Source: Oikopleura dioica
Lineage: Eukaryota; Animalia; Chordata
Direction of reading: 5' to 3'
NCBI GenBank assembly: GCA_907165135.1
Contig: OU015567.1
Location: 6,076,001-6,140,000, forward strand
DNA length: 64,000 nt
The notes under the pieces are model-generated. The model ran no database searches. It was not told where the DNA came from and worked only from the letters and a program-made list of their open reading frames with translations. The position numbers and the translations under genes are program-made. Shown in pieces: positions 3,975 through 33,400 of the stretch; position 1 is the stretch's first letter, and each line of letters starts with the position of its first letter.

Positions 3975-4301
3975 ATAATAATCTATCTTTTTGTAAATTA
4001 ATTTAACACTATCAAAAAGAGCACCTCACTTGCCTTGAAGAACAACAAAAAGAGCGGCTCGACATTCAAACTAAAAAAAATAAAGCCTCAATACTTCAAT
4101 CTTCTCAAAACAAATTGATCGTAGCCGTAATACACCTTTCTCTGTTTTCATCACTTCTTATCATTTTATACCTTCTTTTTTCCTCTTTTTTTTCTTGCAA
4201 ATCTTGTACAGAGAGTTATCTACTTCAAATGAACCTATCTATTGCAAATGACATTACTGTATATTTTCAAGACTGAAGTCTTGGCTCGTCAACCTTTGTA
4301 C

Positions 4302-4470
4302 AAATACCTGAGTCAGGGTCTGAAAAGCTCATATGAAAAGCCGCGCAGTGGCTTATTTATAAACGAAGCCGCGAAGCGGCTTTGCTAATAATTCTATTTG
4401 CGGCTTCGCTTATAAATAAGCCGCTGCGCGGCTTTTCATATGAGCTTTTCAGACCCTGACTCAGGTATTT
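4302..4470. mobile_element. Palindromic MITE related to the 1988-2233 family (outer termini absent)
   Basis: aaatacctgagtcagggtctgaaaagctcatatgaaaagccgcgcag and its near-perfect inverse; shares cctgagtcagg and aagccgcg motifs. Confidence 0.75.
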
Positions 4471-4591
4471 CTATACAGTTTCCGTTGCTCAGACGGAAGT
4501 CATATGCAAAAATCTTCAAAAATAAAAAAAGTCCTACAAAAATAGTTTTTATACTTCGTTGTATTTACATTAAAATAACATATTCAAGTGC

Positions 4592-4960
4592 TTATACAGG
4601 GGTTCCTTCATCGACACAGCCGATAGAAAGGATCCTCTTGAAAAGAGTTGAAATAGAAGAAAAGTTGTTGTTGTAAATATCTTGTCGGATTCGGTACTCT
4701 TCGATTTTCTGAACCTTTCTTTTTTCAACATGGGCTTTTCGCGTCTTTGGTCGAAGAGAAGTTGATGCTTTTCGTGTTTTTCGGGAAGTTTCGACCTTTT
4801 TCAGCGAGCGAGCGAAGAAGGCGTCCATTTCGGAAAGGGCTAGGTCGGAAGTTCGGGCAGCAATCATTGCGTTGGTGTTGTTGATGATGATTGTTGGTTT
4901 TGATGATATTTTGCCAAATCGACTCATCATACCTTTATACTGAATGGTTTGGAGCGCCAA
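4592..4960 (-). CDS. Small basic hypothetical protein, copy A (paralog at 41203-41566)
   Basis: ORF ...[34 protein letters not shown]...GCVDEGTPV* is nearly identical to the ORF at 41203; true start uncertain. Confidence 0.55.
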   Translation of the reverse strand: MALQTIQYKGMMSRFGKISSKPTIIINNTNAMIAARTSDLALSEMDAFFARSLKKVETSRKTRKASTSLRPKTRKAHVEKRKVQKIEEYRIRQDIYNNNFSSISTLFKRILSIGCVDEGTPV

Positions 4961-6431: not shown

Positions 6432-9400
6432 ATGAGCTCCAGAAGAGCGAGGTCAAAATCATCAAATAGCCTCAAATCGGTAAAATAAAAAATATAATTT
6501 TAAGGATCCCCAGTAGTATTATCCTTTTCGTTTTGCGCGTTCGCACTATTCTTCTGAGAACAAACATCGCGGGGCGCGCGCTCATTGGCGGGCGCTCCGC
6601 CAATAGCGCTCAAAATTTAAAATTCAAGTTCAAAATCATTTTTCTCAAAAGAGAAGTTTTGCATGTTTTGTGTTGTTGTTTGTATTGTTTTGGATTGTTC
6701 AACACGAATTCTTGAATAATTCATGTAATAGCCAGTATTTTTACCAGGTTTTTTTATAGATTTGCTTTCGAGAAAAAACACGAGAAGATATGAAGAAAAT
6801 CAACGAAGAAGAAATAAAGATAAGTAAAAAATTCAATAATTTTCTAATTTCAACATTAAATTTGGTGAGCAATGCGCTCCAGACTTAAAATAAGGGTTGA
6901 ATAAAAACTGGGAGAGCTTGGTATCACTTGTTTGGATCTCGGTCCTGGGAAGTTTCTCGCTCATAATTAGGCTTTTTTAGTATTAGTTAGATTTTTAAGT
7001 CTGTGAGCATCGTGCTCCCATTATATTTAAAAATTTAATAGTTATAATTTTTCTAAATTCAAATCTAATCTAAAATGGTGAGCAATGCGCTCCAGACTTA
7101 GTTAGGCTTTTTAGTATTAGTTAGATTTTTTAGTCTGTGAGCACTGTGCTCCCGTTTAATAGAATTTAGTAGATAATATTATTAACACGTTAAAATAGAA
7201 AAAATAAACTATATTTTCAGCCCCAGCGACTGGAAGGAAGCTGACTTCGGCATCAAGCAGCTCTACGACGCTAACTGGATTATTTGCAACCCAACTACTC
7301 CAGGTAAAGCTTACCAATTTAGATCTTTCTTCACTAAAATTCTAGCCAACGTCATGCACGTCCATCGACGACAGATCGCTCTTCCATTCCGAAAGCCCTC
7401 ATTCTCATGACTCCCAAATCTCTTCTTCGACTTCCAGAAGCTCGATCCGAATGGTCAGAAATGGACCCTGGCACACAGTACAGACGACTCATCGGTGAAG
7501 AAGGCGCTGCCTCCAAGGTAAAATAATATCCTTCATTCATTACTTAAACTTTGCTCCATTCAGAACCCAGATAACGTCAAGCGACTGATATTCTGCTCTG
7601 GAAAGGTCTACTACGATCTCGTCAAAGAGCGAGCTGCCCGAGGCTTCGAAAACGATATCGCTATTGCACGAGTTGAACAGGTACTTTCAGCTTAGAGAGA
7701 TCAAAGGCTACATTTTATTCTAGGTCGCTCCATTCCCATACGATCTCGTCATTCCCGAGCTCGAGAAATACAAGAACGCCGAAGTCTACTGGGTCCAGGA
7801 AAAGCACAAGAACATGGGTTTCTACGACTTCTGCAAGCCTAGACTGCGAACTGCATCCAACTGGTCCCGCCGAGTCCACTACGCTGGCCGAGACTCCGCC
7901 GCCTCCGCCGCTGCTGGTTCCAAACAAGTAAGATTTCAGCCAAATTTGCAAAAGCTATTTTGCGTTTCAGGTTCACAAGATCGAGCAGGACAAATTCATG
8001 AACGACGCTTTCCGAAAGGGCGCCAAGGGTCGATTGTACAAATAAGCCACCTATTCTATCACTTACAAAGTACTGATTCCTTCCACAAAGAAAAACTATT
8101 GTCCTTAAAGCTTGTGTGTTCCCTTTTCTCACCTCCGTTCCTGTTGTTCAATAATTTATTAAAATAATGCACCTACATGCACAAACCTCCCTCTCTTCCC
8201 TTACGTTCAACAAAAAAAAACTTTCTAAAAATCCAACTACTAAAAATTTTGCCTGTTTTGTGTCTGAGGAAAAAAAAACTGAAACTCTTATTTATTCGGC
8301 CATTCGTTGTTTTGGCCCCGCAATTCATTGTAGCCTTCAGTAACTGGTATCAGCTAATCAAAGTAAAAATACAAACTGTGTGTACTAATAAGTTGAAAAT
8401 ACAGTAGAGCGCAGTCCGATACAGTGCTCAAAAAGTTACTTGTAATGAGCAGTAAGGCGTCGAGTAAACCGATTTTGCGAAGAGTTTATGATCATTTAGA
8501 CAGGTAAGAACGATTCTAGACGTCGAAACGGCTCTAGAAATGAAAAAAACATGGCTTATCAACTTTTCAGTGAGCCTGAAGATCTGAGAAAAAAGCTCTC
8601 TCGGGTGCGTGATTCTTTCGATGCTTTGGACAAAGAACTTTTTCCCTCTGGCAGGCCGAAAGATATCTACCGAGAACCCCAGCTTTTTCCTGGAACAGAA
8701 GATGGGAGGGATAAACATCATCGTCGAGTCAGAACTGTCAAGCCTGTGTTGAAACGAATCGTTGATCCGATCGAACCTTCCAGCGGAGAAGAAGATGATG
8801 ATCTTGTGATTGTCGATTCGAAGCCGGGAAAATCAAGAAAGCACCGGAAAAGGTCGGGTTTCCGGGAAAGAAGAAAGAAACGAAAGCGGTCGAGATCTTC
8901 TAGTCCAAGTTAGAGTTGCAATTTCCCTTAGAGCATGCCCATTTTGATCTTTCTTTTTTCAACTCTTTCAAAAGTCGAAAGCATCGCTCAAGATCGCGCA
9001 GTCCTATCCGCCGGCGAAAGAATCGATCCAGAAGTACAAGCAGAAGTATGCATTACTGCTCGAAGCATCGATCGAAAAAGTCCAGAAGTGAAAAGAGGGA
9101 GAAACGCTTGAGTCGTCGGAAAAGCAGTTCTACGAGTAAAACACAAGAAAAACTTCCTCAGACTCTTCCTCCTCGACAGAACAACGACGAGCTCATCGAA
9201 TCTCCCAAATGCTGTTTCTAGTGGCGATCAGTCCTGTTCAAGAACTGCTAGCTCTGATGTCTCTCGCACAGGCGTTCTCCAAAAAGAACAAAAGGGCAGT
9301 ACAACCGATGTCTGGTCAGAAGCATCAATCAGAAATGCTCGACTCTCGATGATGATCGTGCAAGTGGATAAAATCCGAAACAAGGTGAAAAAAAATCGAA

Positions 9401-12400
9401 AATTCCCGAAGCACACGCTGAAATCTGTTGGATAGTTCCTCATCATCAGAGCCGATTACTGGCCGCTCGACTGAATCTGATGGAGATAAGAATGCTGACA
9501 CTAGGACTCTCCCTGCTCGAGCTGTTGCTAGTCAACTCGACGCTTATTTTTGATGGTAGCTTGTCTTACAGCAAACGCACGGTAGAGCATCTTTTCCTAG
9601 GTAATATCATCTGCCATCGTGGACAAGTAAATCGGTGAATCTGTTTGTCTCATCCGCGAAATGTTCAACTACGCTCGCGACAATCAACCCTGCATTATTT
9701 TTATGGACGAAATCGACGCTATCGGTAGCAGACATCTTTCAGAAGAAATCTCTGCTGATTGTGGAATCCAAAGGTATCTTTACTTCATTTTTTCTAAAGC
9801 TTAATGTCGCTCGCAGTACTCTGATGGAATTGCTCAATCAAATGGACGACTTCGACACGCTCGGAAAGGTGAAAATGATCATGGCGACGAACAGACCTGA
9901 CACGCTGGATCCTGCACTTTTGCGACCCGGTTGTTTGGACAAAAAGATCGAAATCCGTATGAAGCCACCTTAGAAAATCCTTGATCTAAACTCAATTCTA
10001 GCACTGCTAAATGAGCAAGCTCGACTTGACATTTTGAAGATTCACTCGCGTCCACTCGCTACTCACGGAGGAATTGACTTCGAGGTAATCTTGTTTTCGC
10101 TTCTCTCCCTTTTTCACCCCTTTTTAATAGGCGGTTGCCAAGCACTCGGATACATTTAATGGAGCTGATTTGCGAAACATTTGTACAGAAGCAGGTCTTT
10201 TTGCAATTCGATCCGAACTCTTCAACAAAGCCGACCACTCACTTTGCAAGAACAACGAGACAAACTATTTCTCTCTCTCTCTTTTCTTTTCTTATCATCA
10301 CTGTTTCTTTTTGTCAACTAGTCATTCAATACAAAGGCGATTGTTCACACGCATTCTTTAATTCAAAAAAAACTCGTGTTTTATCTTTCCTTTGCAATAT
10401 AAGATTCATGATGGAAATAGAAAACTCAGCACTCGTTTGATATTTCTGACAGTTATCCTTATCTGTCTGCAGCGCGCATAAATTTAGACAGTTTTGTAAT
10501 GGTGAAATTGTTGGCCGATCTCAAAGTAGGAGAAATTCGTAAAGAGCTTGCTTCGGTGCAAGAAAGTACGAGGGGCAAGAAAGCTGAGCTTCTCCAAAGA
10601 TTATCCGACTTTTTGACAAGCAATGACTTTAATCCCGATACCTACGATTTTGCTACTCATTCTCTGATGCCGGTATCTGACGGCGAAGGAGAACTTCACA
10701 TTGTCGAAAATGAGCAAGAATCCTCTGCCACGGACGCAGAAGACCATGAAGTCCAAGAAATTCACGATGGAACCTTGAGAGTGACAGTTTTCGAGTCGAA
10801 GGATGAAGCTGACAGCCAATGTGATAATCTCCAAAATGGGGTTAAATTCGTGCACAAGCCCCATCGGTCGTTTCTACGACTTATGCAATCCAAGGGGGTC
10901 CCCAAACGCGGGAAAGATTGGCGATCATGGGAAACGTCGGCTATCGGGGTCATTCTACAGCCAATTTTTGGGTTGGATGGTTTTGGCGATTACGACTTTG
11001 CAGTTGTGGAGGAAATAAAAAAAACTCGAACTGGGCTAGAGTTTAGACATTGCATAGAGAGATTAGACTTGTTCTATTCTCTAAACATAACACCAGATGA
11101 GAATGGGGCTGTCTTAGGTGATGAGTACATACACACCATCGACAAACTTCTCTGTGCAGAAAAGAAGCGATTTTGTCTTCCCCAGCGCCACGAACTTACT
11201 TCATTTATTTATACACCAAAAAGCAAATGGAAGAGAAAAGAAAAAAAACAAGTTAAATTGCACATCTCGCCTGATAACTACCCCATCCTCGAATGGAAAC
11301 ATTTCCAGTCCATCGCCGAATGTTTCATCACCAAAAAACATCGGTACTACAAACTTTACATGAAAGAACGAAGCAAAATGACGAATGGAGTTTTCCGGAA
11401 ACATATACGACAATCAGCAAGTGATTTTCATGCCCGATATGGTGATATAACAGCAAGATCCCATCTTGTGCAAATTGATCATATTGATGATTTTGAAAAG
11501 TCAGTATGAGTAAATTTACCGTTTAATCATTTTTCTACTAGTGCGACTCGAATCGCCCAAGAGGGCGCGATAGCTGAGGGAGATGGAGATATCAGCCTTG
11601 CAATCGAAAAATACGCCGAAGCAATCGCCTTGGATCCGACGAACAAGGTCTACTTCGGTTATCGATCGGACGCGCTCCTCCAACAAGAGCAGTTCCCCGA
11701 AGCTCTTAGGTAATAAGATTCAATTTTTATCCATCTCTCCTTTATTTCTAGTGACGCGGTGAAAGCAATTGAACTTGAGCCCACATGGCCAAAAGGCTAC
11801 GCCTTGAAAGGGCAGATTTTGATGGCAACAAAGAAATTTGAGGAGGCAAAAGTCGAGTTCGGAATGATGAAAAAGTTCGATGAATCTCCTGACGAAGCTA
11901 TCGAATGGTTAAATATCTGCCAGCAAGGTAAATCAAGCTCAAGGATCACTTACTTATTTTCACTTTTAGAAGAGGAAAAGGAATGTGCTCATCGTGAACG
12001 AACTGAAGAAAGCGTCAATCAAGCTACGTTGGAAAGAAAGCAAAAGGAGCAAGAGATCGCTTCGGCAGAAGATGAACAGCCTGCGCTCGAAGTAAAACGA
12101 AACGAGTATCGAGAAAAAACTGGTGTCGTCTTGGAGAAAGTCAGCAAAAGTAAGTTGATTAAGTCAGAACAATATTTACAAGAATTCAGAGCCTGTTCGG
12201 CGCAGAAAGCGTTTGTTGAGCAGTGACGAGGAAGACGCAGCGGCTAGTTCAAGCGATGAGAAGAAGAAGAAACAACGAGACTCGGATGAAGAGACACCTG
12301 TTCTATCGCCTTTCAATCCCAAGCACAATAATACAGAAGTCACTGAAGACGATTCGTCTTCCGATGATGATTCCAACGCAGAGGTAGCAGGAATAATCAA

Positions 12401-15400
12401 TTATAGAGCTAAGTTTATCATTAAGGCCGATGTACAACAGCAAGCGATGCTTTCGTCGATCAGTGGTGAAGAAGCCGGACCACCAAAGCCACAGAAAGAC
12501 ACTTTGGTTAGTTCAAACGATGGAGCATCTACTGATATTGCGGCTCCAACGCCGGTGGTCGCTGCTTTGGATGATCAGAAGATCGCTGAAATGCGTGCCA
12601 AGATCTGGGAGTCGAACGAAAAGCTCAAATTGCTGGGCGCTAGAATCCAGAAGTTCGATAATAAGAGCGTTAACAGGATGAGGTTTCGCTCTATGATCGA
12701 CTTCTTGCGTCTAGCTTACGATCAAATGTCGAAAAAGCTTCATCATCTCGTCGAAACCGCCGGCAAGGAAGGGCTTGCACCCTTGGAAATGGAAGTCGCA
12801 AGTTTGGGAAAATCGCTGGAGCAGTTGTCTAGCGATATTTTTGACGAAGAGATGCACTGGCACAATCAGCAGCATGAATTGGACAGAATCAACCAAGAAA
12901 AACGGCAGCCACATCAGCCAGCGATCGCAACTCCTCATCAACACAGTCAACTGTCAAATATGCCGTCACAGCATTTTCAACCTCCTCCTCAAATGAGCTT
13001 CAACCAGCGATTTACTCCCCAAAATAATTTTGGCCCCCCTCAGCAGATTCCTCCTCATCATCAGATTCCTCCTCATCAGCAGATTCGTCCTCATCATCAG
13101 ATTCCTCATCACAGACAGTTCATGCAACCACTTGGCAACAGCCAGATGAATTTGCCACGCCGTGGACCAGTGGCGAAAAATGGATGCAAACCAGCGCAAT
13201 CCACAAAAAGAAAAAGAACAAAGAATTAAAATGAAGCTGTTCTTTTTGTATTTTATAATTTTGTATTTTTCGAGCTCTTTATAAAACCGGAAAAGCTGTC
13301 ATTTTAGGATCCCGGCTCTCCTACAATATATCTCACATTTATGTGTAGAAGTTTATTAATTTATTTTCAGGTTCAGTTTACAAAAGCGAAAATATTTCCT
13401 AGGAAGTTTTTCCTGATCCGCTTTGAAGAGAAACAAACTTGGTGCGAAGCTCGCGACGATTTCGTTTTCGAGCAAAGAATTCCAGAAGGAAGCGAAGAAA
13501 AGTCTCTTGATAAGAATGGAAAGTTTATACGTGTTTTGCGCGAACGAGCGGAAAAGTTACTCAAGAATGAGGGTGGAAGTCGGCGCTGCGAAGGTAAGTC
13601 CGATCTTAAAACGAGATCGTAGGGCCTTCATTCACGACCTGGAAGATGAATTTAAAACGGTCAGAGTTGCATCGCTGAATTCTCTTTGCACCTTAGCCGC
13701 TAAAGAGTCCACTGGAGATTTCGCCAAGCAGTCGATGGACTACATGGTAGACATGCTCAACGATGAATTGGAAATTGTTCGCCTGAATGCGATTAATAAC
13801 TGCGTAAAATGGCTTCGCGAGTTCCTGTTATGCTGGAAGATCAGAATGAGAATGTATTGACGAGCTGTTTGCCCGATTCTAGGCGAGAAATTAGGTAAAA
13901 TCATTAAAGAATGGGCAAAAAAGATAATTTACGGGCGAAAAATTTATAAAGAAAGCGCTATTTCTCCGTTTCATCTTTATTTCAGAATTTCTACCCATCG
14001 ATTACTGTCCTGCTGCCGTCTTCTGTCCAAAAATGCCTGAATCGAACAGTAGAAGAGCTCATCCAAAGTCTTCAAAAGTTCCCCGAGGACGAATCATCCA
14101 TTTACGTAGCTGTTTGCTGCCTGTTAAATGCCGACGTCCCTCTTCATGCACAACAATTGTTGGCTCACAAGATCCAGAGCCCATTAGAAAAAGAAGCTGT
14201 CTGAGGCCTGGATCTGTTGGAAATCTGCGTTCGATCCTCTGGAAAACTCTTTCACAATGAAATCGGAAAATATAGATTTTTAAATGAACTTATCCGCGTT
14301 GTCTCTCCCAAATATCTTGGACCAAGGTAACGTGGCTTAAAACCTGGCTTATCGCATGAGCATCAGTCCGCTGCGCTCCCCCTCTCGCCTCGAGTTCGGA
14401 GGACTTTCATTTGGAGGACCTCTTTTTGCGCCCTCACGCAGATGTAGGGACTTGTAATTTGCTTGACCTCCCAAAGAAAAGCCACTTGACTAAAATTTAT
14501 TTTGTTTTTAGGTCATCACCGCAGGTTAAAACTAGAATTATTGAATTGATGTATGGTTGGACTATTGCATTAAAAGGTTGAGCTTTTCTTATTCTTACAG
14601 CTACTGACTTTGAGTTTAGACCAAATAAAGATTGCTGATGCGTATTCAATGCTCAAGAAACAAGGCATCGTCAAGAAGGACCCGAAATTCGACGACAGAA
14701 GATTTCTCCCTACTCCTCAACAAAAAGAAAGGTACCAATTTAATCAAAATCAGTGTTGAAACATTGTTCAGGTGCGCATTAATAAAAGACGATGCTGAGG
14801 AAAAGCGACTGGCGGAACTTCTTGCGTCCAAGAATCCAGAAGACATCGCCCTGGCAAATGAAATGATCAAAACCATGTACGAGCAAGACAGTTAAAAGAC
14901 CGATCGAGAGGCGCGCAAAATGCTTTTGATGACAGAAGCGAAGGAAAAATACATGCTCATGGATGATATGATTGCTGCTGGAGCTACGTAAGGCCAAGTT
15001 CTTCTCTCATTTATTAACACTCTCTGAATAAAGAGCGAAATCGGCGATGGCAACAGTCTATTCGGACTTGGAATCAATGAGGCCACAGCTCTTCCGTCTC
15101 GCGTCAGAAGCAAATGAAAACAACGATGAGTTGATGGCGGTCCTCAGGCTAACAGATGAAGTCAATCGAGTCATCAATGTCGTGAAAGATAAATACCCCA
15201 ATGTAGTGGAGCTTTCGAAGTAAATTCTTTCTCATATTTCCTCCCTATTATTGTATTCTAGCGCTTCTACGCCAACTTCAAATTGAAGCAGCGTTCCATC
15301 ATCTGGTCTCACTGCAACATCAAGTCCGGATACCCAAACTTCTCGCCTCCACGACCTCGGCGTCGACTTGAACCTGCTCGGCCTCGAGGATGATCCTCCA

Positions 15401-18400
15401 TCGAACAGACCAGCTCAAAGTAGTGGAAATGTGATCGACGATTTGAAAACTCTGAACAGTATATTTGGGTCCTCTCCAATGGGAGAAGCACCGTAAGTCT
15501 CAAGAATTTTCTCTTAATCAATTTATTAGCTACGATCCTTGGCAGAGGTAGTTTTATAAAGGATTTTGTTCATTTATGCATGCATTTATTATCAGCTAAC
15601 AATTTTGCCTTTACTCGTCGATTTTGATGATTACTGAAGTTCTAACAATTTTTTCAGTCAGCCAACTCTGCTGGATATTAACCCATCAGCACCTTCTGTA
15701 TCCGCCATGACGAGCCAAGCCAGTCCCCAAATCGCTGTTTGGCCCACTCCACCCGAAGTGGCGGCTTTGACGGGAATCAAAGTCAATCTCGCTGATTTCC
15801 AGGCTTCTTCGACGACAAGAACTCTTGTCGACGATGATGGAGTCAGAGTCATCCTTGTCCGAGGAGAGAATAAAATTCAAGACAGAAGTGATGTCCCTGT
15901 ACTGCTAGTCACTTTTGATTCGACAAATCCTGCACCTATCGAGAATTTAATGTTCAATGCTAAAGTTGCAAAACCTTTCAGGTAAGAATCCTTTTCACTT
16001 CGAATCCTTTCAAACATTTTCTTTCAGAATAAAACTATTACAGCCATCAGGCAACGAGTTCCCTGCGTTCAACCCCGTTTCATCAACTTCTTCGCGCATT
16101 ACACAATTGATTCTAGTGGGAGGGCCGCTCATCCCAAATCAACTGGCAGCTCTCTGCGCCAATACCTAAATAATGTATGGGTAGTAATTTATGACTGTGG
16201 TCTCTGTTCGTAAACGAATAAACTATTTTATCAATTTTACCAATTGACAGAAGCCCAAAATGGACATTTTGTCTTTTCTTAAGTTTTGAATCCTAGGAAG
16301 CATGCATACCGCGTAGCGGTAATATTGTTGAAGTATTAATTATCCATTGCAATTTTCCTACGCAAAAGAAAGGGCTTAATTGATATTCGTGCATGTATAT
16401 AATGCTAAAGGACGCAGGTACGCAGTTTTTACTAAAGTGAGATATGAAATGTACGTGGATTGTACTAAAAAATATGCATGCTTACTCAAGGAATAATAGC
16501 GATCACCTTCCAAGATGCAATTTTCAGAGTCCAAAAAAGCACCTGTTTCCGAAGTAAAAGTAAAAAGAAGGAGAAAGAAAAAGCCAAATATTTTCCTCGC
16601 TATCTTTACTAATTCTTTTTATGCGGCGAAGCCCCCTTCAAAATCAACAGATTCGTAGGACAGAGGCTTATCGGCCAACTCTGGATTCCTCTCACGATAA
16701 TCGGACTTTTTGGCCCACCAAAAGTACGAAAAAGATAGCAACAGACGAGTCTCATTTCCTGGAAATATCTCATCAACAAGAAAGTTTTCAAAAGTTGCAT
16801 GGAGTTTGCAGATTTTTCATTTTATTCAAAAAAACAGGAAAAGAGCAAAAGTTTCGGGATAAAATTTGATAAAGATAGTATTGCTTGTCATTTGATGAAC
16901 AAATTTAATAAAGCTAATATTGCTTGTCATTTAATAAACGAATATGATGAAGGTTGTCTATTATGGCAATAATGAAGAATAAGTTAATCATTTTATAAAA
17001 TTAAGCAGTAAGAGTATAAAGTAGTTTTAACAGAGTAAATGGTAAGAGGTACATTGTTTAGGTGAACTATAACGATTCATTTTATCATGATACGAACATA
17101 TATCTCATTTCATTTTACATATGAAATATTAAATTGCTTGGAATAAACAATGATATACCACAAATAGTGTTTCATTTTGAATACTTTGGAGCGTTTCTAT
17201 GCAAAATTTACTTTGTAAAGCTCATTTAGCTCATTAAGCATAGCTTTTTTTTGAATGGTTGTCTCTTTCGAAAGGGATTTTTTCACCTCATTTTTTATTA
17301 ATGAAGTGAAGGAGAAATTTTCTTCTTATATTCGCAAGAAAATAGGGCGCATAGCATGAGATCAAGAGTCGTAAATATTTGAACGACCTAGAAATTGACG
17401 TTCAAAAAGTTTTTCCGAGCGATGTTGTTTGGTAAACCTACTTCAGAAACTCACAATTGCCCTCAATTGTCCTTATCTGTCCGACTTGTTACGTAAAGCT
17501 ATGAACAGCATGCTCGAATCATTTGTTTTCTATTTCCGTGGTCCTTTATCCCTTTATCGGCTGATTTAGGAGCTTCGCTTTTTTCGCCATCATTTTCTGA
17601 TTCAGTTGACGATTCTTGATCCGTCAGACCGATTTAGCGGTTATAAGGAAACGCCGGTGAAGACAAGGCTCATTTTATCCAAGAAATTTATTTTTTTTGT
17701 GTTGACAATGGAAATCGACGCTCTCATGAGAGAACGCGAAGACCGCCTCGGTCTTCGAGATTTAGCCCTCGAAAAAGAGAGTGAAAGTAAGTCTGATATT
17801 AAGTAAGACAGAAAGATTATATGCGATTTAGGGGAGGATGAAATCAATGCACTGGAACAAGAGCGACAGGAATTGGAACTACGATTGTTTGAGATGGAAG
17901 AAAGGGTTATTGAAGCCCAGCAGGAAAGAGAAAGATATCAAGCACTTGCACAGCTAGCGCAAAATGATGCTGATCGACGTAAGCTTTTAAATTTAACACA
18001 GATAAAGACACTTATCCCGAATTTTAGTTGAGGATGAAATAATCGTGAGAATCAATGCTATGGAAAATGAAGAAGAAAACAACGACGAGGGTTTCGTAGA
18101 GGTGGATGAAGATTTGGATGATCTGAGCGACGAAGAGAATGCTGATTGATGATTTTTTTTTGACGAAGTACACTGAAAACAGGTTGACACTTGTAGCTGA
18201 CACAATTGGAATAAAATAAATAACTACCTTCAATACTATTTGTATTTTTCTATGCAGTCACTTCGCATTTGCAACATGGTTTGAACTTCAGATTCAGATT
18301 TATAAGTCAGCTGAAGGGAGTCGACTTGATTGAGGTTTCGAATATCTGGGAATTCTTTGAAGCCGATTTGCTTGCGTTTTGATTCAGAGTTCGTGCTAAA

Positions 18401-21400: not shown

Positions 21401-24400
21401 TTACTACGGAAACTGTTAGTCGAGAAACTACCGCTTCTTATTTTGAGTTTTCCAAGAGCGTAAATGATCTGGAATCTTCCTTGCCCCAGACTCGACCCAC
21501 ATTTATGCCCGAGTCAATATCCGTAGAGACTTCTATTCCATCATCTGTCACTACGGATATGAACACATTTTTGTCCACTTCTGGCCAAGAGGTTATCGAG
21601 CCGATCACATTTTTGTCGACTGCTGGCCAAGAGCTAATCGAGCCGGACGCATTTTTGTCGACTCCTGGCCAAGAGCATATCGAGGTTTATTCTGAGCGTC
21701 TGACATCAATGTTTCGTGAAGATACCTCAGCTGCAATTTCATTTTCATTTACATCTCTACAAGACCAGAGTCAGGCTATTTTTGAATCTCAGACCACCAT
21801 CCATTTTCGAGACACTACAGCTGTAACTACGCTTGAGGATTTTTCCCATAAAGCAACGACTGCTGTTTTCGAGGCCGAGACTCTAGGTTATTTCACAGAG
21901 GCTTCTCAAACTAAAAGTTCCGTAATTTCACAAACATTGACTCAGACGGGTTTGAAGGCGCAAACAACTCAGACTTCTTTCGTGCAGACGTCAACGTCTT
22001 TTGACATGTCTGGAGTAAGAGCGCTTTGAAAAAACGAAAGACTAAAAAGCTATTTCAGACGGATGGAACAACGGAGACTGCCATAGCAAGCAAAGAAGCA
22101 AACATTCCGGGTTGGCTGATCGCGGTCCTGGTTATTCTTGCAATGATTGTTCTCGTCGTTTGCATCGGCTGTGGTTATCTTGTAAGTTTTTATCATCTGA
22201 AACTATAAACAAACTGAATAAGGTGTACCGGCTGTACAAGTGCATCAAGGGATCCCAGCGAGAGCATGACTACGAGATGGGGCGTCCGAACAAAGACAAG
22301 GATCGAAAGAATGAACACAGCGACCAGGAAAACAAAGAAGATGACCCGCATCGAACAAGCCACCCCAAAAACGCTGGAATGGGCTTCAGGGACAGTGATC
22401 AAAACCATCGGCCTGATGAAACTAAGAAGGATGACAATGGTGATGCCGGTGATGAAACTAAGAAGGATGAAAATGGTGATGCCGGATCAGACAATTCACA
22501 AGGTGATTTTCTCAATAGAATTTTTTTTGGCAATTCCTAACTTTCATTAAAGGCGGAAACAGCTCCAATCAAAAGACCAAAAAGGATGAGAAGACCGAAA
22601 ATACGAATACACAAGGTAATACCAGTTTTCACTTTTCTACCGATTTTAACATATCAAATAAGACGGAGGAACAAATATGGACATCAAGGAAGAGAAAAAA
22701 CAAACAATTTCCAAAGACGCGGCGAAAAAAATCCCAAAAAAAAGTAAGTTTTTCTCCGAGAAAAATGCCACAAAATTAACTCTTTCCTCTAGAAAACGTG
22801 TTTAATCGCGGAGGAAAATTTCCATGGAACCCAAGCCCAAAATCAAGCAATTCCCAACCATCGACAAGCTTTTTGGCGCCGATTACTTCACCAATACAAG
22901 CTGGATTACAGACAGGTAACTTTGACAACAATTTTTTCAGCTCCTACTCACCTCTTTTTTAGCTGCAAACAAGATCGCGACTACCCTCCCACGAAACCTT
23001 ACCGTCCAATTCGAGCAGGATAACAAAAGTAATTTATTTTTATCAGACAAGTATCCAAACTTCTTTTAATTAGCGGTCACCGTTCGATCGGTCAACAAAA
23101 TTGAGGTCAAACCGAAGCCAATGCCTGGAAAAGTTACAAAGCGACCCCCAAATCGACCACAAGCACTTCAACAGCAAAGATCAGAGTCACGACGTGTGTC
23201 ACTTCCAGAGCCCCGACCTGTTTCTCCTCCAGCAACTCGATCTGAGCCTCTCCAAGAATCACGACCTGAGCCTCTCCAAGAATCACGACCTGAACCACTT
23301 CCAGAGCAACGACCTGAGCCGCTTCCACAGCAACGACCTGAGCCTCTCCAAGAATCACGACCTGAACCAAGACCTGAACCTCTCCGAGAACTACGACGAA
23401 GCAATCGTCTTATGACACCGAAGAACTACGTTGAGTTCTCTTCAGACGAGAGTCTTTAAATCGCCCTACATCTCACGAAATCCGCATAAGAGATAACTTT
23501 TGAAGCCCCTGTAAATTCTCAAATCTGCTTTTCATGCGTAAGAAAAGATAATCTAAATAAAGAGTGAATTGTGTGAAAATCCGTTTGAATTTATTTGTTA
23601 GCATGTTAAGGTTGACATAAACGAAAAAAATAATGAAAACATAAATGAATGAAGGGATCAAATATATCCAGATGCGTTCTTGAGTGGGGTTGCAGTCACT
23701 TGGTCATCAGCAATCTGCCATTTTACATAGACATTGTTCAGTGCATTCTTTGTTGTTTTTCGAATGACGATCTCGTTCTTACGGGCTACCATGCCTGTCA
23801 TTGTAGCGCTGAACTTTTCATCGTCAAGGAGAGAACGTACGAAATGCTCCACCGGTGTTTCAATATCCTTTTTGACGCCTTATTATGAGTTGAAAGAATG
23901 GTTTTATCCTTATAAGTGAACTTGAATTAGCTTACTGAGTACTTTCTAACCCAAGCCTTTCGTTGATTTTTTTATTTTTATATCCCCCTTATCATTTTTA
24001 CCCTTGAGAATATAACATTTAGAGCTCAAGCCACAATAGGTGCCTTGCCCATATATCCCACCCTCGATTTTGAATAAACCCGGCGTTTTCTCCAATTTTT
24101 TTCAGCAATTTTTCGGCTTCCTTCTTAGAGTTATTTGATTCTCGCAGCATCTGGTCAGTGACTTTTTCAGGAACCATCCATGTGTCAACGAAATTTTTCC
24201 ATGACTCCTTCTTCTCAGATTTGACGAGTGTTTCAACATCATCACCTGTATAAGCAATCATAATCGAATCGGTGTCTGCGTAGCAAAGTTTGAATGATCC
24301 TTCCTTCAGATGAGTGCATATATTATCAATGAAATTGAACATGACCAATTTGCTTTTCTGATAGACTTAAAAAATATTAAGAGACCAATTCACGAACAAA

Positions 24401-27400
24401 GACATACTAAATGCTGAAATATGTGTTGGAACGCTATCTCTCTGCGTTTTCTTCTTTTTGACAATTTTGACCAAAGATGTGGGTCCTTCAGCACTGATGA
24501 TTTCATTTTTTTCGAGCAAAGGCGATCTGATGTAGCGGTATAAATCAGCATCATCGATGTATTTTGTTTCCCTGTATTTAGAAACATTCTTGCCAAACAA
24601 ACCAGTGACAATATTAAGTACCAGCTTTGAAAGTTTTTCGCCAACTTTGTTCTCGGCAATATGATACCGGATTCGATCAGCGACCAGTCTATCGACGAAA
24701 GGAGCCATCGGTTTTTCCTTATTGTACATAAGAAGATAATGAACCTTCTAAAAGCGACATGATTAAGTTTTAAAAATCTTTTAGCGAACCTTAATAATAT
24801 ATCCCATATCCAAATAAAAATACAGTAGAGGAGTGATTAGAAGCATTTTTTCTCCGCCAGAATTATATATCAATGTGTTCTGGCTCACAGGCATCTCAAG
24901 ATTTCCGATTTTTTGATTTTCAGATAGCATATTTCTTTCTATCTTTGTTTTCTTAAAAATCATAGGAAATTTCAGATCTCCATATCGATTATAAACAGCT
25001 TTACTTGGCTCAATTTCCACCATTGCGAATCCAAAAACTTTTCGTTCTATCAGAGCATCGATTAGATCTTTTTCTCTTAGTTTCTTATCGTGGAAAAGAA
25101 AAGGACACCAATCTGGAGCCCAATTTTCTCTGGCATTACGAGCGAACTCTTCATCGGCCATGTTTCTTTTCATAAATTTGTCGAAGTGACATTCTCGCTT
25201 TATTTTAAGGATGTCGATTTTCTTCTCTATGAATTTCTTTCTTTCCTTGTCTCGTTCTTCGTCAGCGTCCTCATTTGTTTGGATTTTACATGAACGACAT
25301 TTATGCCAATAGCAGCCGTAAAACTCAACTCCCCATCTGATATTGTCTTTCTCATAATATCCATCAAGAGAATACTTCCCAATTTTCTTTTCGCCTATGT
25401 GATATGCATGTTGGATATCCACACCAGATTGATGTCGCAGATATTCTAGATACTGCAAGCTTTTGAGGGAGATTGATTCCTTGCCCTCATAGAGCAGATT
25501 CAACTTGAAATATCCAACATCACCAGCACGAGTAGCGTCACCGATATCCCCGGGATATACAGCGATTCCAGGACCACATGGCAGAGAATCCTGTAGAGTA
25601 AAAGGATACAAACTATTTGCATCAAGCTGTTTAATCATTTTGAAGAGTTCGCCATTGTCAGCATATCGGGCGGCATGTGGAAGAGGCCCATCTGGTTGGT
25701 TCAATTCGATCAGTCGGTGAAACACGTGCGTCATTCCTCCTGTCAAGGCTTCACGGATGTCCTTTCTCAATTCAGCATCAGTGATCGAGTAGATGGGTGT
25801 CGCACGCGCGTATTTACCAAACGCAATCTTTTCAGCAACTTGCGCCAATGAGATATATTGATGGATATTCACATTAAATTTTTCGGCAAACTGGTTACTG
25901 TATTCTACAATGCCTTGGCTTAGCATGTCTGTGTCGATGAGATTATAGACACGCAGCCAATCGAGCATCGTTTCACATTTTTCTTCTTCGAATAAGTCCT
26001 TTGAAGCCAAGTATTTATCAAGAGAGATATTGAAGAATTTTTTGGAGTCTTCGTTGATTACAAAGCAGCGAAGAGAGTTTTCCGCAAAGTATTTGATTTC
26101 ATCAGTTTGAATTTCCCATTTTTTTGCGAGGAGCTCGATATTCTCATCTGTGTTTTCGTAGCAACACTCAAAACTATCTGCTAGACTGTTGAGTTTTTCT
26201 ACAGGGACATCAATTTCAGCAGCAAGATCATCAATCGTCCAGCAGTGTTCAATAAGAAATTTGTTGACCAGGTGAACTTCTTTCTCGACAGGAATGTAGA
26301 AAGAGCTATAAAAGTCGGAGTACGGTGGAAATCCTTTGTAACTGATGAGCTCGTCAGTGTCTTTGAAACGTTCGTATGGGTAAACGGCTTTTGCTATCTG
26401 CAATCCAAGCGATTGAACAAACTATTGAACAAAAATTAAGAGAGGATTTTCAATCTGCCCTTTTACCTTTTCCAGAGACGTCCCTCTTTCAACGAGATTC
26501 ATCATGTCCTTGAATTTGATATTGCCATAGGAAGCAAGCATTGTTCCGGCGCCTCTTTGGATCATATTCATCTTTGGCTCAAAACGAGTATCCTTGTCTC
26601 GCTTTGTGACTAGTAAGTGGGGATGTCTACGACGAACAACTTCAGTCAGAGCATTGATTATAACAGTCAAGTCGAAGCGTTCGCTATTCCAGCCGTAAAC
26701 ATTGAGAGAATAGAAATCGTCAAGATACTTGAGCCGATCGCAGAGTTCTGCTTGCTTTTCAACTGGAAAATTGTGAAATTTCTCACTATTCTTCAATCGG
26801 ATCAAGCGCCATTTTTCATTATCGATCTTTTTCGAAAGAGTCCTATTAAATTCTTCCTGAATATCACATAAGTCCACGTAAAATTCATCAAGCAAGGAGA
26901 AAAGAGATTCTTGACTTGTCCCTCGGCGCCATAGAAATTTCTTTGTGTACTCGTCTCCGGCTGGGTTGTACGCATGCCATGCAATAGAGATCAGCTTATA
27001 CGCAGACAATTCCTCAGTCGTGGAACTTATGTTCTTCTCTTTTTCGGACCTTGGGACAGAAGCAGTTTCAATGTCAAAAGCCACAAAGCTTTGATGAAAC
27101 TCATTTGTACGCAAAATCTTGTCGTAAATCAGATCGTAACGAGTGTGATCAGTAAACATTCCATATTTCTTCTGTTTATGTGAGAAAGTTGTTCTGTCAG
27201 TGCATGTTTCCAGATGTTTCGAAAACTTTGCACGATCTGAGCAGCTGAAGGAGCAATTAGGCGTTGGACAGAGGTCAAAATTGATTTGCTCGGGCAGAAG
27301 CTTAAAGAATGTACTATCCGAGAATGTTTTCGTCTGATCATCCTTCGAAAGCTCCAGTTGAAGTATTTTTCCAGAGCCACAATAAAAATCTAGCTGTCTG

Positions 27401-30400
27401 GAAACTCTGTCAGCACCAGGCCTTGACAGTCTGCGCCAAAGAACAAGTTTGACATTAAACAACCTCGAGAAATTCTTGTAATTGGAGACTGTGATATCAC
27501 TCGTTTGTGCGAAGTCGATCCATTTCTGTCGTATTTCGGCTGCTTTTTTGAAAAACAACCTCGGGCACTTGTATAAATCCTTGTTTTTCACTTTCGCAAC
27601 GGCTTCGAAGATGGTCAGCTCAAGAGTATTTATCCGGTCAATTCCATGGTTGATAAATCCATCGTCAAGAAGCTTAAGCTGATTGAATCCATTAAAACGC
27701 TGGTCTTTGAAGAAAAACGTCAGACCGACACTGCCTGGACCCGGATGCTGCGTTTTATAAAAAAGACTATCGCCGCCATTCGCTGTTTTCTGATAGATTG
27801 TGAAATGGACATTAAAGTCGCTTTCCAGTGCTTTTCGAAATTTCAAAACTTATCGTTTAATGCCATTTATTATTAAAATTTTGAATATTTTCCTGATAAA
27901 CATGGGATTTTAAAAAGTCCGTATTTCTTCTGAAAGTCGATAAATTTGGAGTAATCAGCACGACAGGGATTTTTTGCACGTTTCGGATCTATGAGAGTCT
28001 TCAGTTTCTCTAATCGACGCTTGTCAGGTTTTTTCTTCTCCTGATTAAGAAGAACTCCAAGATAAGTAAGATTGTAAAATTGGTTGTTATCTTCTTTCAA
28101 ATGTAAAAATCTCATTTTTATCGGAAAATCATACTTTCCTGTTTTATGTATGAAAAAATTGACAGCGGAAATTCACCATACATGCGAAATTTCGCACGTG
28201 CACATGAGAAGACAAATAGTTATTTAAAAAATTCTGTTTCGAGGAGTTCTACGCCGTCCTTTCAACAAGCTGTCAAAGTAAAATCAAGAACTCCCGATTA
28301 CAGGATTTTTTTCAACTAAATAAGAGTCAGAATTCCAGAATGAGCGGAAAATTCAAAGAGTCAGAGATTGATTTCTTTCGGGAGTTAACAAAAGAAAAAT
28401 TGAATATAAATGAACTTCTTACAGAAGAAGAATATAAAGTGATGAATGATCACCAGGAAAGAAAGCAGATTTTAGATTTTATCGATAAAGGAAGTTGTCT
28501 GTATTTCTGTTAAGCTCTCTGGCTTTAGTAGACTTGCGAATAACTTGGAGTACTATCTTCAGTACAAGTTTCGACTATCTCATAAATCCCTCAAAGTTAA
28601 GGGAATGCCGAAAACCTATATCGATCGATGTATTCTGTCAATTCCATACGTCAACAATAACAAACTGAGCGAAGTGACTCGTATGATTACCGAAAATTTG
28701 TTTTTTCCTTACCAAATCGGTGTTGATGCATGGTTCATGAGCGCGTCGCAGAAGATGATCGGTTTGCTAACTGTTTCTCAAGTTTTAATAGCCGATGAAT
28801 AAACTTAAGATGGAAAAATTCAAGAAGACCTGAGGCTGTACTACTCGGGCTCTTCAACATGGATCAATGACACAAGAAAGGGTTATTAATTTTGTAGAAA
28901 AATCTTTGAACGCTCTTTAAAAACCTCATTGAAGAAAAATAAAAAATGATGAAGATGTTACTCAACTTCTCTCAGAGACCAAAGATGAGACATTAGAGTA
29001 AGTGTTTCTTCAAACTTTAGTTATAAGAATTATATTTTACAGAGAACGCCTTTTGGCAAGTCACGAGTTTGACAGGACTAACTTTCATCATTCGGGTGTG
29101 AGCTTGCGCCAGGTGCTTTTGCTTCGATATGAAATCGAAAAAACATATGGTAAATTACTTTTAATTAAATGAAAAATAATATGATCCTATTAGTTTATCC
29201 GAGCAATAAACTTCAAATTCGCGAAGAAGACGAGCAAGAAGAGGCGCAAGAAAGGGCAAAGTCAAATATTAGTATTCCATGAGTAACTGTTTCTCACTTC
29301 TGATTTAACACGATCCGACGGATTTCATTCTTCTCAATAAACTAGAAAGAGCAATTTAAAATGTTCAGTTTTTCAAAAACCGATAAGTTTGACACTTTGG
29401 GATACGAGGACTGTAAAATCCAAGAAGCTGCTCCTTATTGCAACACTGATGATACTCTTGAATTTCACATTGTTCCGCAAAAGAGATATTTCAAGGCGTG
29501 TGATTCTCGGCTGCATTTTCATATTGAAATTCCTGAAAATCATGTATTGGACAATGACTTTTGTGCGAAGCTCTTCAAAGGGCTTCCTAAGATTGAAATC
29601 GCAGAAGACCCAATTACAAGCAAATCATGTGATTTAGACTCTGCGTTTTCTTCTCATTTCTTGAATAAGTCATTATTCGATCAAACAACAATCGACTCAA
29701 CTTTTCCGATTATGGGCGTCTATGATATTTTCGAAGCTGACCAAGACGACATCGGCAGAAGTATTATTGAGAATCGAAAAATGTATGCGAAGGAGTTTTT
29801 AAAAGAAATCGAATTCGAAGGAAAAACTTACAACACTAAATGGCTGAGATACGAATTCAAAATCCCAATAAATCATGGAATCGCTCGAGCACCAATTATT
29901 TTACCAGCTGGACTTGGAATCCATCTCTCGTTTGAGCGTGCTCCAGCAAAATTTTCGCTTTTAAAAAAGAAGAGTATGCTTGATGCGACTGACGATGTCG
30001 GTGATGTGGTTGAGATTGACTATGATTTTCCGGATCCAGTTGTTAAGCTCGTCAGGCCTGTTTTTAAAGCAATGTTTGTTTTCTCTGAATCATTGGAAAG
30101 GGAAATGAAAAAGTATGCGACTTCGAAATTCGAAACCACGTTCTTGGACTACTGTATAAGAAGACCTACCTTAGACAAAGGCGATACTGATTACACTGTT
30201 AATCTTACTAAAGGAGCGTTCCCGAAATACGCGGTTCTTTCTGTTACCAGTCTCAAACGCTCACATGGAGATTACAAGCAGTCACTGACAAAACTAGAAC
30301 GTGGAAACATAGAGCAAGTTGATGTTCTCGTTGATGGTTCGAGTCTCCCTGGTTACCCCCTTAAAACAGATATGGATTTTTACGAAAATTTCCTTATGAT

Positions 30401-33400
30401 GAGCGAACGATATCTCAATCCCTGGAGCTCCGGTGTTTTGCCACAACCACATTATCTCAAAACCAACTTCTTTGTTTTGATCAATTTTGAAATGCTCGGA
30501 AGACGCAATGCTGCTCAACTCGTGGTCAAAATAAAATTCACTCAGTCACTTGATGATAAACACCTTCTTCTGTTCATGCCTATAATTGAAAAAAAACTGA
30601 CAATTACTCCTGAAAATGATGTTACTGTAGAAGCTGTGTAATAAATCTGATTTAATCTCAACCGTAAAGATTGTTATAATTTTCATCCGACCATGAAATC
30701 TTATTTTGTTTCCCTTGCGACCTATTTGATCCGATCAAAAATACGGATTTTACGGCGTTCAAAGATATGATCTTATCTTTTGTCAGAAGATGTCTCAGTG
30801 AGTATGAAATTTTCTGATCTTGGCGTATATAACCGAGTAAGAGTCAATTTCTATTGTAAGATATTCTTATTTTTAAACAATGAAGATGACAACATGGAAG
30901 AAATAAGAGACGACGATTTTGAAAAAACCCACGAGAGTTTATTAACCTTAAAATGATTCATTATTCTTTAAAACTTTGTTATCCTTGAACAGCATTTATG
31001 CTCGTTTTAATTTTGTTACTGTTTCTTAAAATGATACCGTATTTTATCAGATACTCCTATTACCAAAACTAATTTTTTAACAAATTAAATCAAATAATAC
31101 ATATTTCTAAAATGATCTGATCGGTGAGATTTCAGACAGGACAATGAGATCGTAGGGTATAATCGGAACCGGTGTGTTTGACATCAGAAATCGAATTAAG
31201 GTATGTTATGCAAGGAAAATATATTTAACTCTATTCAGGATCCGGAATCCATTATTGCGAAGAAACGAGTGGAACTTTTTTGACCAAACTATAGGTCCCA
31301 GGTTTGATCCTTTTTGTAAAATTTTTTTTTCAATATTCTCTTAGAGTTCTTCTCTGACGAATATTCTTTCGCCATCGAGTTTTGCTGCAAGGAGTATCTG
31401 ATAAAAATCCGAAAAAGCAAAATCAAGATGCTCCTGTTGTTCCAAAGGTATTTTTGTCCTTCAGAGTTTTTCTCACGCGAATATTTTTTCGCCTTCGAGT
31501 TTTGATGCAAGGAGTATGTGATAAAAACCCAAATCAGCATAAGCACGATGTTCATGCTGCTCTAAAGGTATTTTTGTCTTTCAGAGTTTTTCTCACGCGA
31601 ATTTTTTCGCCTTCGAGTTTTGCTGCAAGGAGCATCTGATAAAAATCCGAACCAGCAGAAACAAACATGAACTATATCAGGAAATTAAGAAGAAAACAAG
31701 AGATATTCAGGCTGTTCCTTGATAGCAAAGTATTAAAGAAGGTATTTTAGTCTCGAAAATCACTTACAAAACTTTAAAATCAATTTTTGAAGGCTTTAAA
31801 TCCTGTTCAGCTGCTAAATCAAAATGAAAATGACAAAAAGAAAAGTAAGTGATATTAAGGCTGTTCTTGGATAGCGAAATATTGAAGAAGGAATGAATTC
31901 AGATCAAATGCGATGTCTGCTCACAGTCAGCACCACTACGCAGGCTGTTCTGGGATATCAAAGTATTGAAGAAGAAGTAAGTCTCAAAAATCACCTTCGA
32001 AAAATCAAAATTTTTTTTAGGCTTAAAATTTCGTTCAACCAATATTTGCAACCTTAGTTCTTGGAGAGCAAAGTATTAAAGGAAGCTTAAATCTCGGTCA
32101 AGAGCTTTGCACCAAACAACTACCAAGCCGCACAAAAAAACAAATAAATTCTGTATCTGCTTATCTGCAAACCAATAGAAATAAAATTATATTATTTTTT
32201 CAGTTTATTTTCGAAAAGAGTTTCTTAATTGTCGCAGTATTTTCAATTGCATTTTCTGTGAATAATTTCATAAAAGACAACAATGATTTCTCACATTCGA
32301 GTGACCAAAAAAGAAAAGTGATGGCAAAAAGACCACAGTTAGAATGAGTTCTCATTTGAATTTTCGGGGAAGTGATGAGAGTTCGATCACCCATCTCAGT
32401 TTTGAGAAATAGGTGGAGATTTTCGTATGCACTATTTTTTATGTAGCCGAGAGGGTCCATTATTTCGATAACATCATTTTTTACTATAAGACTTATCCAA
32501 TGCGTTCCATTTGTATGAATTAGAAAGCCAACAGGAAAAGAAAGAATTGTGAATTTGATTAAATCGTCAGCAAAGAAAATTCCCCCAAAATTCGCGAGAC
32601 CGTGCAAAAGCTCTTCAGCGCTAAATAAATTAAAGAATCAGCGATTAACTTATTTCAGACCTTTCGGCGTCCATTTGATCTTCTCTTCTTTCCTGATTTC
32701 TTTTTTGATTTCCTTTTTTTTCCGGCGCCTCTGATCCTCTTTGGGACAAATCGAATTTTACGGCTAAGCTTATTTTTATCAATAAATTTTTATTTCCCCT
32801 TACCAGAGCCCTTTCTTTGGCATCTCTTCAGTCAATTTTTATGAATAATGAGAGAAACAAATTTAAAATCTAACACGTTCGAATATTTACACTGGGTAAA
32901 TTTACAAATCATCGAGAATGATCTGAATATGATCACTCATCGATCTTTAGAACAAGCGAAATGTAGGTCACATGACTCGGTAGCCTAGAATATTATTTTA
33001 AAAAGAATTTATTTTAAAAAATATCACCTGAGCGAGACATAAAATTCTCCTCCGCTTATCATATCCCACTGCTCAGCTCCTGATGGCGAGTCAAATTGAA
33101 CCCCGTTTGGAATCGTTAGAAGTATTTTATCCGGATTAAAAACCGATGGATTGATCAGATTGCACCGAATGTCCATAAAATCAAGCTGATCGTCATTTGA
33201 TCGGCAGCAGTAGCTCATAACTGATACATAAGATCCCTGGAGAGGATGTCTGAACCACCATTTAATCATCTTCTCTCCGGGTAAATTTGTAATATCTGCC
33301 GAGTCAGAATTTAAACGGATCAGTCGCATTCTTAAAAAAACCATCTTCAACTATCTTTCATGAGGGTCTTTTTCGGAGAACAAGATTCAGTTCATTCTCA

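What the first reader, a model, noticed from the sequence alone, without database searches (positions are those of the whole stretch)
13620..14330. In-frame INTS4::GGA chimera within a single exon
Seen: ...[23 protein letters not shown] (INTS4-like) runs without intron or frameshift into [20 protein letters not shown] (GGA VHS) near 14120-14140. Two unrelated genes were joined at DNA level in frame. This is direct evidence of exon shuffling inside the element, now decaying (TGA at 14202).
Basis: seen in the sequence. Interest (0 to 1): 0.7.

Follow-up and report, generated by a model that had tools for sequence, protein, structure and literature searches.

The report
Gene-fragment seam in tunicate Maverick
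A 33-kb virus-like transposon in a small marine tunicate carries pieces of several host genes stitched end to end; the join between its INTS4 and GGA pieces is real and in frame, but a frameshift about 30 codons upstream, shared with other copies, makes it likely a chance by-product of DNA repair rather than a working new gene.

Summary
The seam is real. INTS4 residues 332-468 (13624-14122) meet GGA residue 34 onward (from 14124) with no intron or shift. An independent DNA contig bridges it, and an annotated Oikopleura dioica gene model (P0001) has the same join. Both parent genes exist unfused. The seam lies in a ~10-kb train of host gene fragments (OGDH, PSMC6, SAP, TPR, INTS4, GGA) inside a 33-kb Maverick/Polinton with 59-bp TIRs, a 6-bp target duplication, polB, integrase, protease and capsid genes. 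Joining was at DNA level: introns survive on both sides and INTS4 is cut mid-exon without a donor site. The frame match carries little weight. It has a 1-in-3 prior, the neighbouring seam is out of frame, no ATG feeds the seam frame, and a frameshift ~30 codons upstream is shared by other copies. The TGA at 14202 is absent from P0001 and run X1. RNA runs gave no junction reads, but the two raw-read runs came from another lineage, so expression is untested. Best reading: Pack-type fragment capture by end-joining repair, likely non-coding.

The parts
6506..6511 (.). left 6-bp target-site duplication
   Evidence: identical to 39625-39630
6512..6570 (.). left terminal inverted repeat, (AGT)2 end
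   Evidence: 59 nt, 95% complementary to 39566-39624; 3 contigs in X1 and 3 in X5 leave here with disagreeing flanks
7724..7933 (+). captured 3' piece of 2-oxoglutarate dehydrogenase (further exons upstream to about 7220, read by eye)
   Evidence: Pfam PF16870 E 2e-19
9605..10208 (+). captured piece of proteasome ATPase PSMC6/Rpt4
   Evidence: Pfam AAA; best PDB hits 26S subunit 10B, E 1e-20; P0001 alignment
10421..11506 (+). SAP-domain open frame, cargo, donor not identified
   Evidence: Pfam SAP above cut-off
11540..13229 (+). TPR-containing gene piece(s) with introns, cargo, donor not identified
   Evidence: TPR families in P0001; STIP1 TPR hit E 1e-6; limits read by eye
13371..13614 (+). 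exon of an unidentified gene plus the first 21 nt of its intron
   Evidence: one relative P0045, 78% identical; an X1 contig leaves the window at 13614 into intron-like sequence; Atlas gave no family at 0.9 or more
13615..13623 (+). 9 nt assigned to neither donor (filler) at the upstream seam
   Evidence: between loose ends at 13614 and 13624; no copy of its first 7 nt within 300 bases
13624..14122 (+). captured INTS4 piece (native residues 332-468), intron 13895-13985 kept, frameshifts near 13805 and 14029-14033
   Evidence: native INTS4 loose ends before 13624 (X1) and behind 14119 (X8)
14122..14127 (+). INTS4::GGA seam; base 14123 fits neither parent in register; 1-4 nt inside native GGA exon 2
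14124..16164 (+). captured GGA gene from exon 2 (residue 34) to near its end, introns kept, several stops and a frameshift
14202..14204 (+). premature TGA, not shared by P0001 or run X1
24022..27849 (-). [quoted passage not shown]
   Evidence: Pfam PF03175 E 2e-4 and PF00136 E 2e-3 on two pieces, both under cut-off; frames listed
29361..30638 (+). double jelly-roll major capsid protein, predicted
   Evidence: low-confidence model (pLDDT 49) matches iridovirus, mavirus, Sputnik and PBCV-1 capsids at E 3e-8 to 1e-6; homologue P0044 scores 0.97 to a DJR cluster
32203..32637 (-). adenovirus/Ulp1-like cysteine protease
   Evidence: Pfam PF02902 above cut-off, PF00770 weak
33361..34234 (-). retroviral-type integrase, in pieces
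   Evidence: Pfam rve E 2e-7, just under cut-off, on 33965-34234
35443..36090 (+). candidate packaging ATPase (Walker-A-like motif seen by eye; not confirmed)
   Evidence: no fitting Pfam, PHROG or PDB hit
39566..39624 (.). right terminal inverted repeat, (ACT)2 end
39625..39630 (.). right target-site duplication

Best explanation
The INTS4::GGA join is one seam in a train of intron-containing host gene fragments carried by a Maverick/Polinton; it was likely made by error-prone end-joining or template switching on DNA, landed in frame likely by chance, and likely encodes no working protein. Shown: element ends, donors, breakpoints, presence of the seam in other copies or alleles, unfused parents, lesions. 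Inferred: a break in the element's cargo region was patched with genomic DNA from INTS4 and from GGA, recently (99 of 107 compared INTS4 residues still match the native protein); the patched element was then copied, and each copy gathered its own lesions.
For: Introns kept on both sides of the seam. The native INTS4 transcript contig (X8) and protein (P0010) run on through the breakpoint mid-exon with no GT at the seam. The upstream seam joins mid-intron to mid-exon over 9 unassigned nt and is out of frame. In the window the seam frame has no ATG back to a stop at 13892 (spliced) or 13947 (unspliced), and the INTS4 frame stops at 14038. The frameshift at 14029-14033 is also in an X1 contig (13966-14122, depth 373, 0 gaps) and shows in P0001's frame pattern, while native X8 has a gap against the window in that exon. 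O. dioica lacks classical NHEJ and repairs by the alternative route with insertions (passages of PMC11067885; PMC6635534). Template switching with blunt or short-insert junctions is described for animal Pack-TIRs (PMC8277862).
Against: Only two seams were resolved, so 1 in frame of 2 is a weak test of chance. The GGA break lies within 1-4 nt of a native splice acceptor (about 1-3% for one end). No microhomology is seen in register, although alternative end-joining often leaves some. P0001's gene model reaches the seam frame through a different donor in the INTS4 exon, so a spliced route round the shared frameshift is conceivable. No informative RNA run of the window's own lineage was laid apart from one contig.
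Confidence: 0.78

Rival explanations
1. The frame was kept by selection: less-decayed copies express a spliced multi-domain chimera (as in the 1112-aa model P0001) that uses an alternative donor to pass the INTS4 frameshift.
For: The seam is in frame; P0001 has a sense codon at the 14202 position and an open model through AAA, SAP, TPR, HEAT, VHS and N-GAT; stops at 14202 and 14893 and the 13805 shift are not shared by X1.
Against: P0001 is a gene model with 1 member on 1 contig and ends in a shifted frame after GGA residue 218; it skips GGA's third exon; two replacement changes and a frameshift are shared by both copies in the INTS4 piece; no junction reads in 3 RNA runs, 2 of them uninformative.
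Confidence: 0.07
2. The seam is a splice product fixed in DNA (RNA-templated repair or intron loss), which would explain why GGA starts at its exon-2 boundary.
For: Native GGA has a phase-2 intron just there (L002, L003 against spliced L001), and the same-lineage X1 contig leaves at 14127 into an acceptor-like end.
Against: Native INTS4 offers no donor at the breakpoint; the first 1-4 nt of GGA exon 2 are not cleanly kept; introns 136 nt upstream and 200 nt downstream survive; the neighbouring seam is not at native splice sites; with an assumed 12 fragment ends, one this close to a splice site is expected 23-54% of the time.
Confidence: 0.08
3. INTS4 and GGA are neighbours in this lineage's genome and the seam is a deletion inside one captured stretch.
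For: Same strand; O. dioica gene order is heavily scrambled between lineages (PMC11067885, abstract and passages), so other lineages do not settle it.
Against: In both native genomic loci found, GGA follows the 3' end of EFTUD2/Snu114, with no INTS4 match. Not tested in the window's own lineage.
Confidence: 0.05
4. Assembly chimera.
For: This copy has several lesions not seen in runs X1, X3, X5, some of which could be sequence errors.
Against: X3 contig bridges the seam by 88 and 433 letters; P0001 has the same join with different substitutions.
Confidence: 0.02

Closest known systems
Mavericks/Polintons with cargo genes in nematodes (bioRxiv 10.1101/2022.07.12.499685; passages read)
   Same: TIR-bounded element with polB, integrase, protease and capsid; intron-containing cargo next to the left TIR
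   Different: There the cargo is a 2-5 kb region with whole genes of two families (wasp proteases, krma kinases); here it is about 10 kb of truncated pieces of at least six host genes, several of them housekeeping, joined end to end and decaying
Pack-MULEs, Helitrons and animal Pack-TIRs (PMC6431247, PMC8277862, PMC13317346; passages read)
   Same: Intron-containing host fragments captured at DNA level, several donors per element, chimeric frames, mostly pseudogenes; blunt or short-insert junctions
   Different: The carrier is a self-synthesising, capsid-encoding Maverick rather than a cut-and-paste or rolling-circle element; 'maverick' does not occur in the main text of the Pack-TIR survey
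Bs1 of maize and Ssk-FB4 of Drosophila (passages in PMC13317346 and abstract of PMC8277862)
   Same: Chimeric frame built from captured fragments inside a mobile element
   Different: Those are transcribed and translated; here neither is shown and the frame is broken upstream of the seam
Classical exon shuffling (own knowledge)
   Same: Brings pieces of two genes into one frame
   Different: Classical shuffling recombines in introns of matching phase and moves whole exons; here both breaks are inside exons and both domains are cut

Membership tests
Maverick/Polinton | terminal inverted repeats with (AG)3 or (AGT)2 ends | tested here: met
   motif as given in PMC8097293
Maverick/Polinton | perfect 6-bp target-site duplication | tested here: met
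   6506-6511 equals 39625-39630
Maverick/Polinton | [quoted passage not shown] | tested here: met
   PF03175 and PF00136 on adjacent pieces, under cut-off because the gene is in pieces
Maverick/Polinton | retroviral-type integrase | tested here: met
   rve E 2e-7
Maverick/Polinton | adenovirus-like cysteine protease | tested here: met
   PF02902 above cut-off, PF00770 weak
Maverick/Polinton | double jelly-roll major capsid protein | tested here: met
   the model is low-confidence but its top PDB hits are all DJR capsids
Maverick/Polinton | packaging ATPase | tested here: inconclusive
   candidate 35443-36090 without a fitting library hit
Maverick/Polinton | minor capsid protein | not tested
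   no targeted search made
Pack-type (transduplicating) element | host gene fragments between the TIRs with the parent genes intact elsewhere | tested here: met
   INTS4: P0010 and X8; GGA: X1 loose end in the same lineage, L001-L003 in others
Pack-type (transduplicating) element | introns retained (DNA-level capture) | tested here: met
Pack-type (transduplicating) element | cargo moved with the element to more than one site | tested here: inconclusive
   several flanks at the TIR and a second version P0001, but P0001 may be an allele and the other flanks may belong to relatives without cargo
Classical exon shuffling | breakpoints in introns, whole exons moved | tested here: not met
   INTS4 cut mid-exon at 13624 and 14122; GGA cut just inside exon 2
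Functional chimeric gene | open frame from a start codon across the seam | tested here: not met
   with native splice sites, for this copy
Functional chimeric gene | transcription across the seam | tested here: inconclusive
   no junction depth in X8, X9, X12; X9 and X12 are another lineage (0 of 45 and 0 of 62 reads at 95% or more)
Functional chimeric gene | purifying selection among copies | not testable with these tools
   only one copy is held as DNA; P0001 as protein only

The most novel reading that the evidence does not exclude
This Maverick family is a gene-assembly line in a chordate that lacks classical end joining: it strings host fragments together in one orientation, and in less-decayed copies splicing turns the train into a translated AAA-SAP-TPR-HEAT-VHS-GAT chimera whose GGA half could redirect ARF-dependent traffic, carried between genomes in a capsid.
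Probability: 0.07. Interest if true: 0.75.

Novelty: new variant of a known kind. Interest (0 to 1): 0.36.

Why it matters
The seam alone is what fragment-capturing transposons routinely make. The setting is less ordinary: a capsid-encoding Maverick behaving like a Pack-MULE, with recent pieces of at least six host genes, in an animal that has lost classical NHEJ and has a heavily scrambled genome. Its seams are a small natural record of how that animal joins unrelated DNA ends, and they show that some long multi-domain gene models in its annotation (such as P0001) are element cargo rather than host genes.

Tried and rejected
No whole genome is held for this window, so copies could not be counted. 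Viral contigs: P0001 found only unrelated AAA ATPases (15 of 48 stretches); the capsid query found none (0 of 9). JGI metagenomes: 4 of 583 pattern matches were relatives, three GGA and one INTS4, none spanning both halves. RNA runs X9 and X12 gave no depth over 14050-14119, but their reads are native transcripts of another lineage, so this is no evidence on expression; 7 of the 24 listed runs were laid. Contig depth (element about 1-3 times the flank in X1, X3, X5) is not used as a copy number. The exon at 13371-13593 at first looked like further INTS4 but does not align to P0010; its donor stayed unidentified. PHROGs and PDB did not identify the ATPase candidate. A templated origin of the 9-nt filler nearby was not found. 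Deng et al. 2018 is not held and is known only through passages of two papers that cite it. bioRxiv 10.1101/2024.01.15.575659 has no passage on cargo or capture. The scan's own notes had nothing on this element.

Full report
Observation. Frame 3 is open across 14123/14124 up to a TGA at 14202, within one exon that runs from the acceptor at 13985 to the donor at 14327. The upstream part is INTS4: the frame 13417-13857 hits INTS4 structures at E 3e-12 to 8e-12, and the annotated Oikopleura dioica INTS4 (P0010, 887 aa) aligns residues 332-468 to 13624-14123. The downstream part is GGA; native larvacean GGA proteins align from residue 34 at 14124 to about residue 520 at 16164, over retained introns.

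The seam is not an assembly error. A contig of DNA run X3 covers 14035-14556 with one other letter and 11 gap letters. Of 6 proteins found among 46 candidates with the seam-spanning query, one (P0001, a gene model on chromosome 2 of an O. dioica assembly) covers both halves and five cover GGA only. P0001 differs from the window at several residues, so it is another copy or allele; which of the two could not be told.

Setting. Inverted repeats of 59 nt at 6512-6570 and 39566-39624 end in (AGT)2/(ACT)2 and are flanked by an identical 6-bp sequence, the pattern given for Mavericks in PMC8097293 (passages). Between them lie pieces of a family B polymerase, an integrase and a protease and a 426-aa frame whose low-confidence model (pLDDT 49) matches double jelly-roll capsids (homologue). 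Polymerase and integrase are in pieces, so this copy is probably defective. From about 7220 to 16200 the element carries host gene fragments, all on the + strand: OGDH, PSMC6, a SAP-domain frame, a TPR gene, an unidentified exon, INTS4 and GGA. Three contigs each in X1 and X5 leave the left TIR with disagreeing flanks, so elements with these ends sit at several sites; whether those carry the cargo is not shown.

Breakpoints. On the INTS4 side, a spliced native transcript contig (X8, 95-99% alike) follows the window to 14119 and then continues into INTS4; an X1 contig ends at 14122. P0010 and the genomic locus L004 show uninterrupted coding sequence there, and the native letters at the breakpoint offer no GT donor. 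On the GGA side, genomic loci L002 and L003 against the spliced L001 show a phase-2 intron just before residue 34, and an X1 contig leaves the window before 14127 into an acceptor-like end. In register, 14121-14122 fit INTS4, 14123 fits neither parent, 14124-14125 fit GGA and the match is firm from 14127; no shared microhomology is seen. The break is thus 1-4 nt inside GGA exon 2. For one random end that closeness to an acceptor has a chance of 1-3%; for at least one of an assumed 12 fragment ends near any splice site it is 23-54%. The next seam upstream is of a different kind: the unidentified donor ends 21 nt into its intron at 13614, INTS4 starts mid-exon at 13624, and 9 nt fit neither. Both parents are unfused natively, and in the two native genomic loci found GGA follows EFTUD2, not INTS4 (other lineages, about 80% identical in DNA).

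Does the frame mean anything? Probably not. A random join is in frame one time in three, and the upstream seam is out of frame (the upstream exon's frame stops at 13676). In this copy the seam frame has no ATG back to the previous stop, and the INTS4 frame stops at 14038 after a frameshift in the A-run at 14029-14033. That shift is not private: an X1 contig at depth 373 crosses it with no gap, P0001 shows the same change of frame, and the native X8 contig has a gap against the window in that exon. Other lesions are copy-level: the indel near 13805 is contradicted by all depth in X1, X3 and X5, and so is the stop at 14893; the TGA at 14202 is absent from all X1 depth (3 contigs) and from P0001. 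The X3 bridging contig differs from the window at a single unshown place, so it may carry the TGA. Over 107 compared INTS4 residues, 3 differences from P0010 are shared by both copies (one of them also in another lineage's native protein), 5 are window-only and 1 is P0001-only: a recent capture that is drifting. Against this reading, the P0001 model passes the shared shift by an earlier donor in the INTS4 exon, and no support for or against that splice was obtained.

Expression. X12 (62 reads laid, 59% of the run read) and X9 (45 reads, 4% read) had no read at 95% identity or more and no depth over 14050-14119; they are native transcripts of another lineage and say nothing about the element. 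X8 gave only the native INTS4 contig. Expression of the chimera is untested.

Mechanism. Shown: DNA-level, intron-retaining capture of two donors, joined blunt or with one extra base, inside a Maverick, present in more than one copy or allele. Inferred: repair of breaks in the element by alternative end joining or template switching. O. dioica lacks classical NHEJ and its alternative route yields insertions (passages of PMC11067885 and PMC6635534 citing Deng et al. 2018; the paper itself is not held). Template switching with microhomology, blunt ends or short insertions is the model for animal Pack-TIRs (abstract and passages of PMC8277862).

Comparison with print. Mavericks with intron-containing cargo next to the left TIR are known in nematodes, as whole genes in 2-5 kb (passages). 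Trains of fragments from several genes are known for Pack-MULEs and Helitrons (passages). Searches for Oikopleura with Maverick or Polinton, and for Maverick or Polinton with captured fragments (listings only, except the papers named) showed no paper on this element or on a fragment-packed Maverick. The library lacks most subscription journals, and no supplement was read; repeat annotations in the supplements of the O. dioica genome papers may list the element.

Verdict. Observation confirmed; interpretation partly supported. The seam is a real but probably accidental product of fragment capture. The carrier, a Maverick packed like a Pack-MULE, is a new variant of a known kind and is the more interesting object. 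Interest 0.36.

Noticed in passing
window 7220-16200: All seven recognisable cargo pieces lie on the + strand. Some neighbours may be native operon pairs, so independent captures may number only 4-5 and the bias is weak.
   Followed up: partly
window 13594-13623: The upstream seam creates a 29-nt GT..AG interval from a cut intron plus filler; the P0001 model uses its AG as acceptor for INTS4.
   Followed up: partly
P0001 (annotated gene model): A 1112-aa 'gene' in the public O. dioica annotation is Maverick cargo (AAA, SAP, TPR, HEAT, VHS, N-GAT), not a host gene.
   Followed up: yes
window 4572-4869 and 41183-41480: A 298-nt direct repeat (87%) lies on both sides of the Maverick, outside its target duplication, with similar open frames on the - strand.
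   Followed up: no
window 1983-2238, 4291-4481, 40534-40716, 42982-43071: A family of short palindromic, MITE-like repeats with related ends.
   Followed up: no
window 17690-18150: A short intron-containing coiled-coil/acidic gene on the + strand inside the element, after the GGA piece; not identified.
   Followed up: no
window 23159-23392, 21561-21686, 31343-31700: Tandem repeats of 24, 42 and 120 nt inside the element.
   Followed up: no
window 39740-40380: Coding sequence just beyond the right target duplication resembles a TBC (Rab-GAP) domain (recalled, no call).
   Followed up: no
L002 1-488, L003 1-650: Native GGA starts about 300 nt after the end of EFTUD2/Snu114 on the same strand, an operon-like pair.
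   Followed up: partly
window 2-170 and 61134-61309: Tandem arrays of 19-nt and 11-nt units.
   Followed up: no
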